Assembly: GCA_000146045.2 (NCBI GenBank)
Contig: BK006938.2
Location: forward strand, 32,001 to 96,000
Length of the DNA: 64,000 bases
Reading direction: 5' to 3'
DNA from: TPA_inf: Saccharomyces
Lineage: Eukaryota
Shown in pieces: positions 9,801 through 51,618 of the stretch. The stretch's first letter is position 1; each line of letters starts with the position of its first letter. The position numbers were made by a program, and so were the translations under genes. Below the pieces are notes generated by a model that saw only the letters and a list, made by a program, of their open reading frames with translations, searched no databases and was not told where the DNA came from.

Positions 9801-10244
9801 TATGGATACCCCATTTTTTCTAATATCTCTAGGGAAATGAATAATGGGCCTGTAGATAGCAGTCCAAACATATTCGGAAAGCTTGGTAAAACCAGATTGC
9901 AGTTTTTTCCTTGCAGCGCCATTGTCGTCATCGATGTCGCTGTTAGGAGACCTAGCTTTGCTGTCCGGCTTGGTAAAAGCAGCATCAAAAAACCCATCTC
10001 TCAGCTCTTCCAGCCCAAAGTCCTCTACTTCCTCCCAGTGTTTGTCCTTAACCAAATTTTCCAGCCGCATTTGCGATAAGGATGCCACGGATTGTTGTGG
10101 GCTTCCTGCAAAGCTAAGCCCGCTTATACCGGCAGGATTCTTATAGTTAAGTTCATGTAGTGACCTGAGTGATGTTTGAGAGTATGAACCTTTCACAATA
10201 TCAGGATCAGGAGTGGGACTTCGATCTCGCTCATATCTTTTCAT
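6867..10244 (-). CDS. BRE4: Multi-pass membrane protein, brefeldin-A sensitivity (YDL231C)
   Basis: 1125-aa ORF with ATG confirmed at 10244. Several hydrophobic segments. Recognised as Bre4. Confidence 0.9.
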
Positions 10245-10699
10245 GAGGACCTGTTACAATTCCAGCACTATACTGTACATGCTTTCCTTAGTGGAGCACA
10301 AAGCAAGTTAAAAATGAACTTTAAATTGATTAAAGTGTTAGTGACGCTTAAACTCGTTTTCCTGCGCGTATTTCACGCAATCTATACATAATCATCTTTG
10401 ATAATGTTATATCGCCTTTCATTTCCAGATTTTGTTCACTGAAAAGTCTTATCGGAAACCTAACTTTGGGCGACAGGGTTATTGTTTATAATTTGTAGGT
10501 GTTCCATTTTTTTCTTTGTACTTTTTTAGGTTAACGTAATATTTAATTAGGTCATTTTTAGGGCGTTTAGTATTAGAAAAATTCATTTGTACACACTATT
10601 AAGAGGAAGGCAAACTATATTTACATTTTATTGAGGAAAAGGGTTCATCGAGGAGTTATCAAGAAAAGCGTTTGTTAGTAGTAGTTTGCGACAGTGGAG

Positions 10700-11707
10700 A
10701 TGGCAGCTGCACCATGGTATATTAGACAGCGTGACACGGATTTATTGGGTAAATTCAAGTTCATACAGAATCAAGAAGACGGCAGATTAAGGGAAGCTAC
10801 AAACGGAACGGTGAATTCACGATGGTCGTTGGGGGTCAGCATAGAACCTCGTAACGATGCTAGAAACAGATACGTTAACATTATGCCGTATGAGAGGAAC
10901 CGCGTTCATTTGAAGACTCTATCCGGGAATGATTACATTAATGCCTCGTATGTCAAAGTGAACGTGCCAGGGCAGAGCATCGAACCGGGCTACTATATTG
11001 CTACTCAAGGTCCCACGCGTAAAACTTGGGATCAGTTTTGGCAAATGTGCTATCACAATTGTCCTTTAGACAATATTGTCATTGTGATGGTCACGCCTCT
11101 GGTAGAATACAATAGGGAGAAGTGCTACCAGTACTGGCCTCGCGGTGGTGTAGACGATACGGTTAGAATAGCATCAAAATGGGAAAGTCCGGGCGGCGCC
11201 AATGATATGACTCAATTTCCCTCTGATTTGAAAATAGAGTTTGTTAACGTACATAAGGTGAAGGACTATTATACGGTCACCGATATCAAACTCACACCCA
11301 CGGACCCTCTTGTAGGACCTGTCAAAACTGTTCACCACTTTTACTTCGACCTTTGGAAAGATATGAACAAGCCAGAGGAAGTAGTACCCATAATGGAATT
11401 ATGCGCTCACTCCCACAGCTTGAATTCCCGCGGGAACCCCATTATCGTACACTGTTCCGCAGGCGTGGGCAGAACGGGGACGTTCATTGCCCTAGATCAT
11501 CTCATGCATGATACCTTGGATTTTAAAAATATTACAGAACGGTCAAGGCATTCAGACAGGGCTACAGAGGAGTACACACGGGACTTGATCGAACAGATCG
11601 TGTTACAGTTGCGCTCGCAAAGAATGAAAATGGTTCAGACAAAGGATCAGTTCCTATTTATCTACCATGCTGCCAAGTATCTTAACAGTCTTTCCGTGAA
11701 CCAATAG
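10700..11707 (+). CDS. PTP1: Protein tyrosine phosphatase (YDL230W)
   Basis: The track ORF starts at a GTG at 10694. The first ATG, at 10700, gives 335 aa starting MAAAPWYIRQ. It carries the PTP signature VHCSAGVGRTG (CX5R) and the WPD-like loop. Confidence 0.92.
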   Translation: MAAAPWYIRQRDTDLLGKFKFIQNQEDGRLREATNGTVNSRWSLGVSIEPRNDARNRYVNIMPYERNRVHLKTLSGNDYINASYVKVNVPGQSIEPGYYIATQGPTRKTWDQFWQMCYHNCPLDNIVIVMVTPLVEYNREKCYQYWPRGGVDDTVRIASKWESPGGANDMTQFPSDLKIEFVNVHKVKDYYTVTDIKLTPTDPLVGPVKTVHHFYFDLWKDMNKPEEVVPIMELCAHSHSLNSRGNPIIVHCSAGVGRTGTFIALDHLMHDTLDFKNITERSRHSDRATEEYTRDLIEQIVLQLRSQRMKMVQTKDQFLFIYHAAKYLNSLSVNQ

Positions 11708-11856
11708 ACAGCTATATAAAAGTTCCTAATTGTGCATTTTTTCAATAACAATACTTATTCATCCTTATAATTATATTCTAGCTTCGTTGTCATGGGAACA
11801 TAGCCCATACACCGCAGTTATTTATGATCATTTCGAACGGGAAGTATGGATGAATC

Positions 11857-11911: not shown

Positions 11912-12064
11912 CATCTTCGCTCGACGTTTCTTTTGTAGTACTCATCTCTTTTTATATAAAGATTAATTAGTTATTGTCGCTTTGCTTTTCCTTCTTTAAA
12001 AAATGTTTCTTGCTTTTGGATTTTCAGATGTCCCAAGATCATTACAGTATTTTAATTGAACAAA

Positions 12065-13906
12065 ATGGCTGAAGGTGTTTTCCAAGGTGCTATCGGTATC
12101 GATTTAGGTACAACCTACTCTTGTGTTGCTACTTACGAATCCTCCGTTGAAATTATTGCCAACGAACAAGGTAACAGAGTCACCCCATCTTTCGTTGCTT
12201 TCACTCCAGAAGAAAGATTGATTGGTGATGCTGCCAAGAACCAAGCTGCTTTGAACCCAAGAAACACTGTCTTCGATGCTAAGCGTTTGATTGGTAGAAG
12301 ATTCGACGACGAATCTGTTCAAAAGGACATGAAGACCTGGCCTTTCAAGGTTATCGACGTCGATGGTAACCCAGTCATCGAAGTCCAATACTTGGAAGAA
12401 ACCAAGACTTTCTCCCCACAAGAAATTTCCGCTATGGTTTTGACCAAGATGAAGGAAATTGCTGAAGCTAAGATTGGTAAGAAGGTTGAAAAGGCCGTCA
12501 TTACTGTCCCAGCTTACTTTAACGACGCTCAAAGACAAGCTACCAAGGATGCCGGTGCCATTTCTGGTTTGAACGTTTTGCGTATCATCAACGAACCTAC
12601 TGCCGCTGCTATTGCTTACGGTCTAGGTGCTGGTAAGTCCGAAAAGGAAAGACATGTTTTGATTTTCGATTTGGGTGGTGGTACTTTCGATGTTTCCTTG
12701 TTGCACATTGCTGGTGGTGTTTACACTGTTAAATCTACTTCCGGTAACACTCACTTGGGTGGTCAAGATTTCGACACCAACTTGTTGGAACACTTCAAGG
12801 CTGAATTCAAGAAGAAGACTGGTTTGGACATCTCCGACGATGCCAGAGCTTTGAGAAGATTGAGAACTGCTGCTGAAAGAGCTAAGAGAACCTTATCTTC
12901 TGTCACTCAAACTACCGTTGAAGTTGACTCTTTGTTTGACGGTGAAGATTTCGAATCCTCTTTGACTAGAGCTAGATTTGAAGACTTGAACGCCGCATTG
13001 TTCAAGTCTACTTTGGAACCTGTTGAACAAGTTTTGAAGGATGCTAAGATCTCTAAGTCTCAAATCGACGAAGTTGTCTTGGTTGGTGGTTCCACCAGAA
13101 TTCCAAAGGTCCAAAAGTTGTTGTCTGACTTCTTTGACGGTAAGCAATTGGAAAAATCTATTAACCCAGATGAAGCTGTTGCTTACGGTGCTGCTGTTCA
13201 AGGTGCTATCTTGACCGGCCAATCCACATCTGACGAAACCAAGGACTTGTTGTTGTTAGATGTTGCTCCATTATCTCTAGGTGTTGGTATGCAAGGTGAC
13301 ATGTTCGGTATCGTTGTTCCAAGAAACACTACTGTTCCAACCATCAAGAGAAGAACCTTTACTACATGTGCTGACAACCAAACCACCGTTCAATTCCCAG
13401 TCTACCAAGGTGAACGTGTTAACTGTAAAGAAAACACTTTGTTGGGTGAATTCGACTTGAAGAACATCCCAATGATGCCAGCTGGTGAACCAGTCTTGGA
13501 AGCTATCTTCGAAGTTGATGCTAACGGTATCTTGAAGGTTACTGCCGTCGAAAAGTCTACCGGTAAGTCTTCTAACATCACTATCTCTAACGCTGTTGGT
13601 AGATTGTCTTCTGAAGAAATTGAAAAGATGGTTAACCAAGCTGAAGAGTTCAAGGCTGCCGATGAAGCTTTTGCCAAGAAGCACGAAGCTAGACAAAGAT
13701 TGGAATCCTACGTTGCCTCCATCGAACAAACTGTCACTGACCCAGTCTTGTCTTCTAAATTGAAGAGAGGTTCCAAGTCCAAGATTGAAGCTGCTTTGTC
13801 CGATGCTTTGGCTGCTTTGCAAATCGAAGACCCATCTGCTGATGAATTGAGAAAGGCTGAAGTTGGTTTGAAGAGAGTTGTCACCAAGGCCATGTCTTCT
13901 CGTTAA
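12065..13906 (+). CDS. SSB1: Ribosome-associated Hsp70 chaperone (YDL229W)
   Basis: The track ORF starts at a TTG at 12056. The ATG at 12065 gives 613 aa starting [22 protein letters not shown]. Hsp70 signatures are present: [16 protein letters not shown] and the ATPase-plus-substrate-binding-domain architecture. Codon usage is strongly biased, consistent with high expression. Confidence 0.95.
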
Positions 13907-14270
13907 GACTGCATTCATCACATATATATGAATATTACTTATATTGTATATAAATTTTGTTTTCTCTTAACTTTGTATCCTTAATAAAATAAAATTCACA
14001 AGTATCACAATTAAAATATTTGTTTTTCTTTCGCGTAAATATTTAGCTTGATAACTGTTACTGATATGTCTGAGGAAAGTTGATCAAGACCCAATAATAA
14101 TCTATATACTGGTTGAAACAAATCAGTGCCGGTAACGCTTTTTGTATCTTGAGATGGCGTATTTCTACTCCAGCATTCTAGTTAAGAAAAAGTCTAAAAA
14201 TGGTTTTTTTCATCCAAAATATTAAATTTTACTTTTATTACATACAACTTTTTAAACTAATATACACATT

Positions 14271-16031
14271 TTAGCAGATGCGCGCACCTGCGTTGTTACC
14301 ACAACTCTTATGAGGCCCGCGGACAGCATCAAACTGTAAGATTCCGCCACATTTTATACACTCTGGTCCTTTAACTGGCAAACCTTCGGGCGTAATGCCC
14401 AATTTTTCGCCTTTGTCTTTTGCCTTTTTCACTTCACGTGCTTCTGGTACATACTTGCAATTTATACAGTGATGACCGCTGAATTTGTATCTTCCATAGC
14501 ATCTAGCACATACTCGATTTTTACCACTCCAATCTTTATAAAAATACTTGATTCCCTTTCTGGGACAAGCAACACAGTGTTTTAGATTCTTTTTTTGTGA
14601 TATTTTAAGCTGTTCTCCCACACAGCAGCCTCGACATGATTTCACTTCTATTTTGTTGCCAAGCAAGAAATTTTTATGGCCTTCTATCGTAAGCCCATAT
14701 ACAGTACTCTCACCCTGGAAATCATCCGTGAAGCTGAAATATACGGGTTCCCTTTTTATAATTGGCGGAACTTCTCTTGTTTTGTGACCACTTCGACAAT
14801 ATGACAAAACATTCTGTGAAGTTGTTCCCCCAGCAACATTACAGTCGTATGTAAATTGACATTGGACTTTTCTTCCTTCAATGATTTCCTCCCTAGCTGA
14901 CCTGGTCGTCACAGTAGCTGACATACCAAGAGATCTTGAAATATGGACAATTCCGTCCATAATGGATGAATAAACAGTTTGAATTGCTATTTTATAAGAT
15001 TCAGGGCCTTCGCCCTTTTTCACAACGTACCCATCTGAGTCGATCAAGCCGGCTAAGAATGCTTCACGAACTTCTATATGCTCGCCGTACATAAATTCAG
15101 GGATTTGCTTCTCTCCATCAAGATCCCTTTTAAACTTTAAAATTGTGACAGCTTTCCAGAATGGATTATTTTTCCTCAAATTCCTTGTCTTCCTGTTTTC
15201 ATCTGGACCATCTCCATAATGAAGCCTTACATGTTTGGCACGTAGCGGAACGTGATCGTCACAAACCGTAAGGTAGAGACCCCAGATTTTCGCATTTTCT
15301 CTTAAACTCTCCATTAGCTTAGGATCCAAGCTATCTACTGAGATTTCTGGCTCTTTTGTTGTACTGTCACCTAACCACAGACCAAGCATCCAAGCCATAC
15401 TTTTTACAGCAGGAGTTACAAGGTCACTACGTCCAGTGAGAAATTTAGATAAAACACCATTTCCTGCGAGTACTGGACCAAATCTTATGCAGCTAGAAAT
15501 TCTCAATTGAGCATCAAGATAATCCAAATCTCTAACTTCAATGTCAAAGTTGAAATATTCTCCTTTAGAGCGCTCCATTTCTTCTATGAAGCGTTTTGCG
15601 GCAAACTCACCTTCAACTGTCATTGGGAATGTCTTATGATGGTTTTTTGGAATTATTATTATCCTACCATCAAGCGTCTGACATTGCTGCAGATTTCTCC
15701 ATCTCACTTTATATTTGGTGGCATTTCTACCACTTTTTTCCAACAGTGGTTTGGTAGGGACCCTGACTGACAATTTATGACCTGCAGTACATTGTAATGC
15801 AAGACGCTGATAAACTGTTCTACGCCTGGGATCTAACCTACCAGGTTCACCTTCAAAAGCTCTGTGTTTGGTTTTTTGCTGTATATTATAGATTTTCTGA
15901 TAGCCCTGTGTGACATTTATGACGCGGGCAGCGGAGCCATCTGCGCACATAACGTAAGAGTTAGCCGTGACGTTTGCGATGTCTTTAATTTCACCGTTAG
16001 CCATCAGAATAGTCGTGTTTTCAGAAAGCAT
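14271..16031 (-). CDS. HO: Homothallic switching endonuclease, intein-like LAGLIDADG plus C-terminal zinc finger; ho-type allele (YDL227C)
   Basis: Intact 586-aa ORF with ATG confirmed at 16031. LAGLIDADG-type motifs are present (LGLWLGDS, FLAGLIDSDGYV) with a Cys-rich C-terminus. The residues at 189, 223, 405 and 475 are A, S, S and L. This is the combination I recall for the inactive laboratory ho allele. Confidence 0.95.
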   Translation of the reverse strand: MLSENTTILMANGEIKDIANVTANSYVMCADGSAARVINVTQGYQKIYNIQQKTKHRAFEGEPGRLDPRRRTVYQRLALQCTAGHKLSVRVPTKPLLEKSGRNATKYKVRWRNLQQCQTLDGRIIIIPKNHHKTFPMTVEGEFAAKRFIEEMERSKGEYFNFDIEVRDLDYLDAQLRISSCIRFGPVLAGNGVLSKFLTGRSDLVTPAVKSMAWMLGLWLGDSTTKEPEISVDSLDPKLMESLRENAKIWGLYLTVCDDHVPLRAKHVRLHYGDGPDENRKTRNLRKNNPFWKAVTILKFKRDLDGEKQIPEFMYGEHIEVREAFLAGLIDSDGYVVKKGEGPESYKIAIQTVYSSIMDGIVHISRSLGMSATVTTRSAREEIIEGRKVQCQFTYDCNVAGGTTSQNVLSYCRSGHKTREVPPIIKREPVYFSFTDDFQGESTVYGLTIEGHKNFLLGNKIEVKSCRGCCVGEQLKISQKKNLKHCVACPRKGIKYFYKDWSGKNRVCARCYGRYKFSGHHCINCKYVPEAREVKKAKDKGEKLGITPEGLPVKGPECIKCGGILQFDAVRGPHKSCGNNAGARIC

Positions 16032-16395
16032 TTTAAAGTATAGATAGAATTGATTGCTGCTTATGAGGATATGGATTTAGAGCTAATAGTTGTAATAGAA
16101 ATAAAAGCCATTTAGAATAGGAATTGAATACAATTTTATGAGCTTTAAATATTTAATGATGAATAGTGCGTTTAGAACGCTTCATCATGCTTCAACAAGC
16201 TTCTGCAAACCTCATTTGAGTAGCAATAGCTGTTTACTTTTTTCCGCGACTTTATTCGAAGTTATGGTGAACTTTTCGTGGTTTCACACCTAATAACGCC
16301 CAGCGGTAGTACAATTCAAAGTAGTAGGTACCAATGGTAGTACTAGTGGGTGATAGTAGCAAATTTCTCTATGAAAATGAATTGTTGCTCTGCAA

Positions 16396-16415
16396 TGATG
16401 TTAATGTGGACATGA
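16396..16415 (-). promoter_or_regulatory. a1-alpha2 (haploid-specific gene) operator match
   Basis: tgatgttaatgtggacatga matches TGATGT-N8-ACATGA, the reverse complement of the TCATGT-N8-ACATCA consensus. Confidence 0.7.
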
Positions 16416-16435
16416 CATGAATTTTCGCGATATGT

Positions 16436-16455
16436 TGATGTAAATAATAACATGA
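16436..16455 (-). promoter_or_regulatory. a1-alpha2 operator match
   Basis: tgatgtaaataataacatga is a perfect TGATGT-N8-ACATGA. Confidence 0.7.
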
Positions 16456-16600
16456 TTTTCGTGGATCATTTCGTAAACCATAGGTTTATTTCGTGAATTA
16501 CTAAGAGAAAGGCATAGAAACAGGACTTGCGAACCCTTTCTGTAATATGTCATAATATTTCAATACACGCACAAAAAAGGTACGTTAATTTCCATGGTAA

Positions 16601-16620
16601 TCGTGTATTTAGTTACATCA
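16601..16620 (+). promoter_or_regulatory. a1-alpha2 operator match
   Basis: tcgtgtatttagttacatca matches TCRTGT-N8-ACATCA. Confidence 0.65.
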
Positions 16621-16760
16621 CTTTTCGTGACACACATGAATACATTTGCCCTTAAGCCCTGTGTAGGATTGATTTCTTTTTTCGTGACGCACATGTCTTC
16701 AACTGCATCAATTTCCATGAGACACACACGTCTACCATGTTGTCAGATCTCATGAATCTT

Positions 16761-16780
16761 TCATGTATTCATTCACATCA
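16761..16780 (+). promoter_or_regulatory. a1-alpha2 operator match
   Basis: tcatgtattcattcacatca is a perfect TCATGT-N8-ACATCA. Confidence 0.7.
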
Positions 16781-17318
16781 TTTTCGTGGATCCTCTAATT
16801 GTATCGAGATCACTTTTCGTGATCCGCTAATCAGCGACGGTCACATTAGGTTTGCCAAGTCAGGGTATGAACCATACGATCAGTTTTCGTGAACCTGGTA
16901 CGTATATTGTGGCGTTTGTGTATATTTTCATTCTTTGACAACAATCAATACCAACCTCAAATAGGAAAAGTAATAAGTTTGGCGTTACACCCCAAAAGAC
17001 GCCAAACGGATCGAACTTACTCAATAGCAATTAGCGAGACAAAACCTACGTTAAGACCTGTAACCGATTTATCAAAGCACTCTGCGGTTCTTTCTTGGGA
17101 ATATTACCTGGACATTTTGTGCCCTCAAGAAACGAGGCTCTACGAGCCTGTTGGAGCCCCTCAGACATTAGCCGCCACGAATCAAACTTTTTACGCGATT
17201 CGGCCCAAATCAGTTTCTCACAGATCATTCGTAGAGTGAAAAAGCACATCGATTATTTGATACCCCTTTGGGTTAATTACTGTTGAGGTCTTTTCTATTT
17301 CTGATTGAAATTTTTGCT

Positions 17319-51547: not shown

Positions 51548-51618
51548 GCGCAAGTGGTTTAGTGGTAAAATCCAACGTTGCCATCGTTGGGCCCCCGGTT
51601 CGATTCCGGGCTTGCGCA
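51548..51618 (+). tRNA. tRNA-Gly (anticodon GCC)
   Basis: 71-nt sequence gcgcaagtggtttagtggtaaaatccaacgttgccatcgttgggcccccggttcgattccgggcttgcgca. It has an acceptor stem, a D-loop GGTTTAGTGG, the anticodon loop tt-GCC-at and a T-arm GGTTCGATTCC. Coordinates were cross-checked against the overlapping track ORF 51451..51684. Confidence 0.95.

What the first reader, a model, noticed from the sequence alone, without database searches (positions are those of the whole stretch)
14271..16031. HO ORF is intact but carries the ho-type substitutions (A189, S223, S405, L475)
The 586-codon reading frame is open, yet four residues carry what I recall as the inactive ho allele of heterothallic lab strains rather than wild-type HO. 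Position 189 in GPVLAG is A (HO has T). Position 223 in the first LAGLIDADG-like block LGLWLGDS is S (HO has G). Position 405 is S (HO has L). Position 475 in the Cys-rich C-terminal zinc-finger region ...CCVGEQLKI is L (HO has H). H475L is regarded as the main loss-of-function change. The donor is therefore an ho, S288C-type strain. This illustrates a pseudo-functional gene that ORF-calling alone would label active.
Basis: partly seen in the sequence, partly recalled or inferred. Interest (0 to 1): 0.5.

Follow-up and report, generated by a model that had tools for sequence, protein, structure and literature searches.

The report
Lab-yeast inactive ho allele

Summary
Window 14271..16031 (minus strand) is an intact 586-codon ORF with A189, S223, S405 and L475. 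The protein is letter-for-letter "Hop [S. cerevisiae S288C]". About 45 kb of the window is 100% identical to one S. cerevisiae chromosome assembly. Against a T189/G223/L405/H475 allele, the CDS differs at exactly four nucleotides: A565G, G667A, T1214C and A1424T.

It is the S288C-type ho allele, and it is inactive despite an open frame. H475L is not the main lesion:
- Position 475 is unconserved in 31 HO orthologues.
- L475 (CTT) is also the state in a sister-species allele.
- L475 is present in the commonest S. cerevisiae allele (A-G-L-L), which published work reports from homothallic oak strains.

G223 is invariant in all 33 other sequences aligned. It follows Asp222, the equivalent of PI-SceI Asp218, at the end of the first LAGLIDADG helix. 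Three recent papers cite Ekino et al. 1999 for G223S (667G>A) being the inactivating change. A189 is a neutral polymorphism. S405 sits at a conserved hydrophobic site and may be mildly hypomorphic.

All of this is already known. Interest is low.

The parts
14271..16031 (-). ho coding sequence (HO/YDL227C, S288C-type allele): 586 codons plus stop, intact.
   Evidence: Exact match to 'Hop [S. cerevisiae S288C]'. Pfam Hom_end_hint 6.6e-46, Hom_end 3.5e-45, LAGLIDADG_3 7.5e-07.
15363..15386 (-). First LAGLIDADG motif, aa 216-223 (LGLWLGDS). It ends in Asp222 and the mutant Ser223.
   Evidence: One search gives the position. One search aligns it to PI-SceI LGLWIGDG (D218-G219 in intein numbering). 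In the AF2 model the helix spans 207-221 and D222-S223 sit at its C-terminal end.
15363..15365 (-). Codon 223, AGT = Ser (G667A). This is the inactivating substitution.
   Evidence: Gly in all 33 other sequences of alignment A1. GGT in the functional-type alleles and in the outgroup. The literature assigns the loss of function here.
15465..15467 (-). Codon 189, GCA = Ala (A565G). A neutral polymorphism in a variable linker.
   Evidence: The column is highly variable among orthologues. It lies in a coil at 185-192 of the model. A189 is present in the A-G-L-L allele of homothallic strains.
14817..14819 (-). Codon 405, TCA = Ser (T1214C). A derived change at a conserved hydrophobic position, possibly mildly hypomorphic.
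   Evidence: L (29) or M (4) in all 33 other sequences. It lies in helix 403-410 of the model. The A-G-S-L allele retains 'some activity' according to PMC11708222, citing Ekino 1999.
14607..14609 (-). Codon 475, CTT = Leu. This is the ancestral, common state. His475 (CAT) is the derived variant of the first-cloned HO allele.
   Evidence: The outgroup codon is CTT. The column is unconserved and no orthologue from another genus has His. L475 haplotypes are the commoner ones. The residue lies in a coil between the C466/C469/C470 and C486/C489 groups.
15030..15056 (-). Second LAGLIDADG motif, aa 326-334 (LAGLIDSDG), intact, with Asp333-Gly334.
   Evidence: Aligns to PI-SceI LAGLIDSDG (D326-G327). 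D333 and G334 are invariant.
14274..14636 (-). C-terminal Cys-rich zinc-finger region (aa 466-586), with Cys pairs at 466/469-470, 486/489, 508/511, 522/525 and 558/561. All are present.
   Evidence: One search lists the Cys and His residues. C466, C470 and C486 are invariant; C489, C508, C511, C522, C525, C558 and C561 are at least 90% conserved.
16274..16891 (-). HO upstream regulatory region (URS2) with an array of eight CACGAAA (SCB) elements, all in the gene's orientation, at -249 to -860 from the ATG.
   Evidence: Eight of the thirteen CACGAAA sites in the 64-kb window fall within these 618 bp. The 5 kb upstream are 99.6-99.7% identical to T-G-L-H strains.

Best explanation
The feature is the ho allele of the HO mating-type-switching endonuclease gene, as carried by S288C and related laboratory strains of Saccharomyces cerevisiae.

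Ho is an intein-derived LAGLIDADG nuclease fused to a C-terminal zinc-finger domain. In wild homothallic cells it cuts the MAT locus and so starts mating-type switching. Here the promoter architecture and the whole reading frame are intact, so a full-length protein is expected. That protein cannot cut DNA, because Gly223 is replaced by Ser. Gly223 is the last residue of the first LAGLIDADG motif and directly follows Asp222, the equivalent of the metal-binding Asp218 of PI-SceI.

The other three 'ho-type' residues are not the cause:
- Ala189 is a neutral polymorphism in a variable linker.
- Leu475 is the ancestral and commonest state. His475 is the derived one.
- Ser405 is a derived change at a conserved hydrophobic helix position. 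At most it lowers activity.

Shown here: identity of the allele, the exact nucleotide differences, conservation, polarity, structural placement and the intact promoter elements. Taken from the literature: G223S alone inactivates an otherwise active allele. Inferred: a side chain at 223 distorts the end of the helix and mispositions Asp222 and its metal ion.
For: 1. Identity. The protein is identical to 'Hop [S. cerevisiae S288C]'. Window 4271-26031 and 28640-51918 are 100.000% identical to GCA_010356925.1 CM021130.1 at one constant offset. The neighbouring genes encode an HSP70, an ArfGap protein and a septin.

2. Exact differences. There are four nucleotide differences from the T-G-L-H alleles L009-L012 and none of them is synonymous.

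3. Position 223. G223 is invariant in the 33 other HO sequences. D222, D333 and G334 are invariant too.

4. Structural placement. D222-S223 aligns with PI-SceI D218-G219, and D333-G334 with D326-G327. The AF2 model (pLDDT 86.9) places 222-223 at the C-terminal end of helix 207-221. The fold matches PI-SceI at E = 1e-41 and TM 0.88 normalised to the target.

5. Literature.
[quoted passage not shown] - 667G>A is classed as loss-of-function, while 565A>G, 1214T>C and 1424A>T are treated as neutral. 667G>A, 668G>A and 646C>T, all in the first LAGLIDADG motif, are the three most frequent loss-of-function variants among 2,910 strains (PMC12799175).

6. A second hit at the same codon. G223D is seen in P0003 and in heterothallic beer and lager yeasts.

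7. L475 is not the lesion.
- The column is unconserved.
- The outgroup codon is CTT.
- A-G-L-L is the commonest haplotype, on 104 contigs.
- Homothallic strains carry that haplotype.
- A-G-L-L shares every synonymous state with the outgroup, whereas 1424A is confined to the T-G-L-H lineage.

8. Regulatory region. The SCB array is intact.
Against: - I could not read the primary functional papers: Ekino 1999, Meiron 1995 and Bakhrat 2004 are not held. The experimental basis is therefore second-hand, through three citing papers.
- Meiron et al. 1995 did map heterothallism to H475L using HO/ho chimeras, and some later papers still repeat this (PMC3223075).
- The A-G-S-L allele of strain wy2 gives only delayed homothallism. 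S405 and/or L475 may therefore lower activity in some contexts.
- The polarity at 475 rests on one outgroup allele, whose species I inferred only from its 9.3% CDS divergence.
- No activity, expression or protein stability was measured here.
Confidence: 0.93

Rival explanations
1. 1995. H475L in the first zinc finger is the principal loss-of-function change because it removes a zinc ligand or DNA contact, and the other three changes are passengers.
For: Residue 475 lies between the Cys groups 466/469/470 and 486/489 of the zinc-finger region. [quoted passage not shown] PMC3223075 still cites it as the cause in S288C and in sake yeast K7. PMC7282813 notes that residues essential for cleavage lie in both the zinc finger and the endonuclease domain.
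Against: - His is found at this column in none of the 31 orthologues from other genera (P, R, K, N, V, A, F, D, I instead), so it is not a conserved ligand.
- L475 (CTT) is the sister-species state.
- L475 is in the commonest S. cerevisiae alleles: A-G-L-L on 104 contigs and T-G-L-L on 14.
- Homothallic YPS163 and new oak isolates carry A-G-L-L.
- PMC12799175 treats 1424A>T as neutral.
- An allele with L475 and G223 retains switching activity.
Confidence: 0.03
2. A cumulative model. No single substitution is sufficient. S405 and/or L475 lower activity, as in the 'delayed homothallism' of strain wy2, and S223 removes the remainder. The lab phenotype would then need the combination.
For: The A-G-S-L allele is reported to give only 'some' activity and delayed homothallism. 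Position 405 is L or M in all 33 other sequences and lies in a helix. S405 is therefore a plausible hypomorphic change.
Against: [quoted passage not shown] G223D and G217R in the same motif are each associated with heterothallism on other backgrounds. The A-S-L-L haplotype, which has S223 without S405, exists in nature, although its phenotype is not known here.
Confidence: 0.1
3. The ORF-caller's reading: an intact frame means an active HO endonuclease, and the four differences are harmless polymorphisms.
For: The frame is open and all domains are detected. The model is confident. The promoter elements are present.
Against: S223 replaces a residue that is invariant across all HO orthologues and PI-SceI and sits next to a catalytic Asp. 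S288C-derived strains are the classic heterothallic strains, and 667G>A is classed as loss-of-function.
Confidence: 0.01
4. Heterothallism of the donor is caused mainly by cis-regulatory changes at HO (no transcription) rather than by the protein changes.
For: The 5 kb upstream of the ATG carries 14-17 mismatches relative to T-G-L-H strains. I did not examine these one by one.
Against: The URS2 array of eight CACGAAA elements is intact and correctly oriented, and the upstream region is 99.6-99.7% identical to that of T-G-L-H strains. The literature maps the defect to the coding sequence. From general knowledge, HO transcription is routinely studied in ho laboratory backgrounds.
Confidence: 0.02

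Closest known systems
S288C ho allele of YDL227C (reference-genome 'Hop')
   Same: The protein is identical at all 586 residues. The surrounding 21.8 kb and 23.3 kb are 100% identical to an S. cerevisiae chromosome assembly that carries it.
   Different: Nothing detected. This is the same allele.
HO allele T189/G223/L405/H475 (P0054, recorded as 'homothallic switching endonuclease' and 'endonuclease (put.)'; carried by several YJM strains)
   Same: Same length and same domains. There are no synonymous differences in the CDS. The upstream 5 kb are 99.6-99.7% identical.
   Different: Four nucleotides: A565G, G667A, T1214C and A1424T. Only G667A (G223S) is regarded as inactivating. At 1424 the window, not this HO allele, carries the ancestral base.
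A189/G223/L405/L475 allele (P0053; homothallic oak strains such as YPS163)
   Same: It shares A189 and L475 with the window.
   Different: It has G223 and L405 and is functional. It differs at 5-6 synonymous sites, at all but one of which (543) it matches the outgroup.
wy2 'delayed homothallism' allele A189/G223/S405/L475 (Ekino et al. 1999; exact sequence P0060)
   Same: It differs from the window protein by one residue only.
   Different: It has Gly at 223 and retains partial switching activity, according to PMC11708222.
G223D and G217R ho alleles of lager, Kveik and D273-10B yeasts
   Same: These are independent missense hits in the same first LAGLIDADG motif, one of them in the same codon. 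The ORF is intact and the phenotype is heterothallic.
   Different: The substitution differs (668G>A or 649C>G, against 667G>A here).
PI-SceI (VDE), the VMA1 intein homing endonuclease
   Same: Same fold (Foldseek E = 1e-41, TM 0.88 normalised to the target). The sequence match is E = 1e-62, with both LAGLIDADG motifs aligned: D218-G219 and D326-G327.
   Different: PI-SceI has exteins, splices itself out and homes, and has no zinc-finger tail. It carries Gly at the position equivalent to 223.
WHO homing-element proteins of Torulaspora and Lachancea
   Same: The same intein-plus-zinc-finger architecture. They appear as distant hits P0048-P0052 at 26-31% identity (PMC7282813).
   Different: They are mobile elements that target FBA1. 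They are not orthologues of HO.

Membership tests
HO endonuclease (YDL227C orthologue group) | Intein-like Hint domain interrupted by a LAGLIDADG (DOD) homing-endonuclease domain, with no exteins | tested here: met
   Pfam Hom_end_hint (residues 3-461, 6.6e-46), Hom_end (3.5e-45) and LAGLIDADG_3. The protein starts at the Hint domain. The fold matches PI-SceI.
HO endonuclease (YDL227C orthologue group) | C-terminal Cys-rich zinc-finger domain with several CxxC pairs | tested here: met
   Cys at 466/469/470, 486/489, 508/511, 522/525 and 558/561, conserved across orthologues.
HO endonuclease (YDL227C orthologue group) | Two LAGLIDADG motifs, each ending in Asp-Gly | tested here: not met
   Motif 2 is intact (LAGLIDSDG, D333-G334). 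Motif 1 reads LGLWLGD-S: Asp222 is present, but the invariant Gly223 is Ser. This failure defines the inactive allele. It does not argue against orthology.
HO endonuclease (YDL227C orthologue group) | Conserved chromosomal context and the long HO promoter with its SCB array | tested here: met
   HSP70 and ArfGap/septin genes flank the ORF, as in all S. cerevisiae loci fetched. Eight CACGAAA elements lie at -249 to -860.
HO endonuclease (YDL227C orthologue group) | Site-specific cleavage of MAT (Y/Z junction) | not testable with these tools
   This needs an in vivo switching assay or an in vitro cleavage assay. The literature says this allele lacks the activity.
S288C-type ho allele | A189, S223, S405 and L475 on an otherwise reference HO sequence | tested here: met
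   exactly four nucleotide differences from the T-G-L-H alleles and no others.
S288C-type ho allele | Flanking DNA of S288C type | tested here: met
   100% identity over 21,761 bp and 23,279 bp to GCA_010356925.1. Other carriers of the same protein are 99.65-99.97% identical. I could not establish the strain name of that assembly.
Classical pseudogene (disrupted ORF) | Frameshift, premature stop, lost start codon or large deletion | tested here: not met
   No stop or indel is present, and the CDS aligns without gaps to functional-type alleles. The known 36-residue deletion (524-559) is absent, since the length is 586 aa.

The most novel reading that the evidence does not exclude
The lab Ho protein is catalytically dead, but its zinc fingers are intact and its promoter elements are intact. 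It might therefore still bind the MAT Y/Z site, or other DNA, in late-G1 mother cells and have some residual non-cleaving effect. That could help explain why the frame has stayed fully open in every copy of this allele examined here (L003-L008). Nothing here tests this. The simpler explanation is that the allele is young.

A more modest reading is well supported (about 0.8 probability). The textbook 'H475L' is mis-polarised. Leu475 is ancestral and His475 is a derived variant of the allele that happened to be cloned first. The lab lineage therefore differs from the ancestral state at only three residues (189, 223, 405), one of which (A189) is also found in functional alleles.
Probability: 0.04. 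Interest if true: 0.35.

Novelty: already known. Interest (0 to 1): 0.08.

Why it matters
It matters mainly as a caution for annotation: an open reading frame with every domain detected can still encode a dead enzyme because of one missense change beside a catalytic residue. The ho allele is also what makes stable haploid laboratory yeast possible.

The useful correction is which residue counts. Pipelines that score strains as heterothallic on H475L would misclassify the many homothallic strains that carry Leu475. G223S/D and the neighbouring LAGLIDADG-motif changes are the informative markers. None of this is new to yeast geneticists.

Tried and rejected
- **Primary papers.** I tried to read Ekino 1999, Meiron 1995, Bakhrat 2004 and Katz Ezov 2010. 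None is held, so their functional claims are cited through PMC11708222, PMC11754353 and PMC12799175.
- **Strain identity.** A literature search for assembly GCA_010356925.1 / CM021130 gave only an irrelevant hit.
- **Other Saccharomyces HO sequences.** The protein search returned nothing between 96% and 61% identity. Polarity therefore rests on one sister-species allele (P0002/L001) plus the distant orthologues.
- **RNA genes.** Rfam and ARAGORN scans of the whole window found only one tRNA-Gly, far from HO. No RNA feature bears on this finding.
- **Disrupted pseudogene.** Rejected: there is no stop, indel or deletion.
- **Promoter defect as the cause.** Rejected as the main cause because the SCB array is intact. 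The 14-17 upstream mismatches were not examined one by one.
- **4:0 non-synonymous to synonymous pattern against T-G-L-H as a sign of selection.** Not significant. With about three quarters of sites non-synonymous, the chance of 4:0 is roughly 0.3. One of the four changes is also on the other branch.

Full report
**1. Observation**

The ORF at window 14271..16031 lies on the minus strand. It has 586 sense codons followed by a stop and no internal stop.
- A189 (GCA, window 15465-15467) in FGPVL-A-GNG
- S223 (AGT, 15363-15365), the last residue of LGLWLGD-S
- S405 (TCA, 14817-14819)
- L475 (CTT, 14607-14609) in CCVGEQ-L-KI

Pfam finds the intein-type Hint domain, the homing-endonuclease domain and a LAGLIDADG domain.

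**2. Identity of the allele and of the donor**

An exact-sequence look-up finds this protein in public collections under the name 'Hop [Saccharomyces cerevisiae S288C]'.

Window 4271-26031 is 100.000% identical over 21,761 bp to assembly GCA_010356925.1 (CM021130.1). Window 28640-51918 is 100% identical over 23,279 bp to the same record, at the same coordinate offset. Other genomes that encode the same Ho protein are 99.65-99.97% identical in the flanks. The donor is therefore S288C-like. It is the flanking identity that shows this, not the four residues. The same protein allele occurs in non-laboratory isolates (PMC11708222).

I built the sequence with only the four residues reverted (T/G/L/H). 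It exists verbatim in the collection on 67 contigs, under names such as 'homothallic switching endonuclease'. At DNA level the window CDS differs from four such loci at exactly A565G, G667A, T1214C and A1424T. There are no synonymous changes and no indels.

**3. Which of the four changes matters**

I aligned the window protein with 33 other HO sequences: two S. cerevisiae-cluster alleles and 31 orthologues from other genera at 43-60% identity.

| Position | State in the other 33 sequences | Structural setting |
|---|---|---|
| 189 | Highly variable (T, S, K, N, E, V, G, I, R, C) | Coil, 185-192 |
| 223 | Gly in all 33; D222, D333, G334 also invariant | C-terminal end of helix 207-221 |
| 405 | Leu in 29, Met in 4 | Helix 403-410 |
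| 475 | Not conserved: Pro in 15, otherwise R/K/N/V/A/F/D/I; His only in one S. cerevisiae allele | Coil between C466/C469/C470 and C486/C489 |

Against solved structures, Ho aligns with PI-SceI at E = 1e-62. D222-S223 sits opposite PI-SceI D218-G219 and D333-G334 opposite D326-G327, in intein numbering. These are the two active-site aspartates of PI-SceI, a point I take from established knowledge of that enzyme.

An AlphaFold model built on the alignment is confident (pLDDT 86.9, pTM 0.83). Its best structural matches are the PI-SceI/VDE crystal structures (E = 1e-41, TM 0.88 normalised to the target).

**4. Polarity and population data**

The cluster representative P0002 comes from a locus whose HO CDS is 90.74% identical to the window. 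It has 136 synonymous and 27 non-synonymous differences, and the intergenic identity is about 83-85%. That is between-species divergence. The source is most probably S. paradoxus, but I inferred this from divergence only.

Its codons at the four sites are ACA, GGT, TTA and CTT, which encode T, G, L and L. A189, S223 and S405 are therefore derived. L475 is ancestral and His475 (CAT) is the derived state.

Synonymous sites agree. The A-G-L-L allele matches the outgroup at 369, 789, 1635, 1710 and 1740. The window and the T-G-L-H allele share the derived states there. 1424A is confined to T-G-L-H.

Haplotype counts by contigs in the collection:

| Haplotype (189/223/405/475) | Contigs |
|---|---|
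| A-G-L-L | 104 |
| T-G-L-H | 67 |
| A-S-S-L (window) | 31 |
| T-G-L-L | 14 |
| A-G-L-H | 4 |
| A-S-L-L | 2 |
| T-G-S-L | 2 |
| T-S-S-L (EC1118) | 1 |
| A-G-S-L | 1 |
| A-G-S-H | 1 |
| A-S-S-H | absent |

**5. Literature**

[quoted passage not shown] 1999)'. G223D and G217R in the same motif are further heterothallic alleles.
[quoted passage not shown] 1995)', but an allele with L475 (A189, G223, S405) retains some switching activity. The A-G-L-L allele 'must be functional', since YPS163 and new oak isolates are homothallic.
- PMC12799175 (PNAS 2026): classes 667G>A as loss-of-function and 565A>G, 1214T>C and 1424A>T as neutral. It finds 667G>A in 241 of 2,910 strains. The three commonest loss-of-function variants all lie in the first LAGLIDADG motif.
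- PMC3223075 still repeats the older H475L attribution.
- I could not obtain the primary papers.

**6. Surroundings**

Upstream of the ATG, on the minus strand and so at higher window coordinates, eight of the thirteen CACGAAA heptamers in the whole 64-kb window fall between 16274 and 16891. All are in the gene's orientation, at -249 to -860. This matches the known SCB array of the HO URS2 region. The upstream 5 kb are 99.6-99.7% identical to those of T-G-L-H strains. The gene therefore looks regulated and expressible. The defect is in the protein.

**7. Mechanism**

Ho is a domesticated intein-type LAGLIDADG endonuclease fused to zinc fingers (PMC7282813). In LAGLIDADG enzymes the two motif helices pack against each other. 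Their C-terminal acidic residues bind the catalytic metal ions, and the terminal Gly allows this tight geometry (established knowledge of the family).

In this allele the zinc-finger cysteines, the second motif and Asp222 are all intact. Gly223 is Ser. I infer that the added side chain distorts the helix end and mispositions Asp222 and its metal ion. The protein then cannot cut MAT, no switching occurs and haploids stay stable, which is heterothallism.

- Shown here: the sequence, conservation, polarity and structural placement.
- From the literature: that G223S alone is sufficient.
- Inferred: the structural reason.

S405 may add a mild hypomorphic effect, given the conserved hydrophobic site and the partial activity of the wy2 allele. 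A189 and L475 are not lesions.

**8. Verdict**

The finding is real but is a textbook fact about the reference yeast strain. Its attribution of the defect to H475L follows a 1995 proposal that later work and my tests contradict.

- Novelty: already known.
- Interest: low.

Noticed in passing
L004, L006, L008 (HO CDS 10001-11761) compared with window 14271-16031: The same A-S-S-L protein allele occurs on two synonymous backgrounds. These three loci carry T at 1635, 1710 and 1740, as do A-G-L-L and the outgroup, whereas the window carries C at all three. This suggests recombination within the 3' end of HO, in line with the recombination reported in PMC12799175.
   Followed up: partly
P0059 (EC1118) and P0003; window codon 223 at 15363-15365: The commercial wine strain EC1118 carries a T-S-S-L allele, so it has S223. 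P0003 carries G223D, a second independent hit in the same codon.
   Followed up: partly
window 13277..13921 (-) overlapping 12056..13906 (+): A 214-aa mechanical ORF lies antisense to the 3' third of the HSP70 (SSB1-like) gene, immediately next to HO. It is probably a spurious or dubious ORF.
   Followed up: no
window 16889..17239 (+); L001 4619-4780: A 116-aa mechanical ORF sits inside the HO upstream regulatory region. A 53-aa gene is called in the same region of the sister-species locus. Both are probably spurious, because they overlap the URS2/URS1 promoter.
   Followed up: no
window 51548..51618 (+): A single tRNA-Gly (GCC) is the only tRNA or Rfam match in the 64-kb window.
   Followed up: no
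L016-L019 (window about 28640-51918): Called gene lengths differ between strains. The JAB-domain gene is 440, 455 or 412 aa. The protein-kinase gene is 699, 698, 666 or 680 aa. L018 has no call for the CDC13-like gene. These may be start-codon choices, repeat polymorphisms or lesions.
   Followed up: no
protein search: No HO cluster appears between 96% and 61% identity, so the other Saccharomyces species are not seen as separate clusters. Distant hits P0048-P0052 in Torulaspora and Lachancea correspond to the WHO homing-element family described in PMC7282813.
   Followed up: no
P0007, P0008, P0011, P0012, P0014, P0015, P0045 (cluster members): Several natural S. cerevisiae genomes have truncated or split HO gene calls of 366-482 aa. 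YJM789 has one fused to an unrelated domain (P0045). This fits the many independent disruptive ho alleles described in PMC12799175.
   Followed up: no
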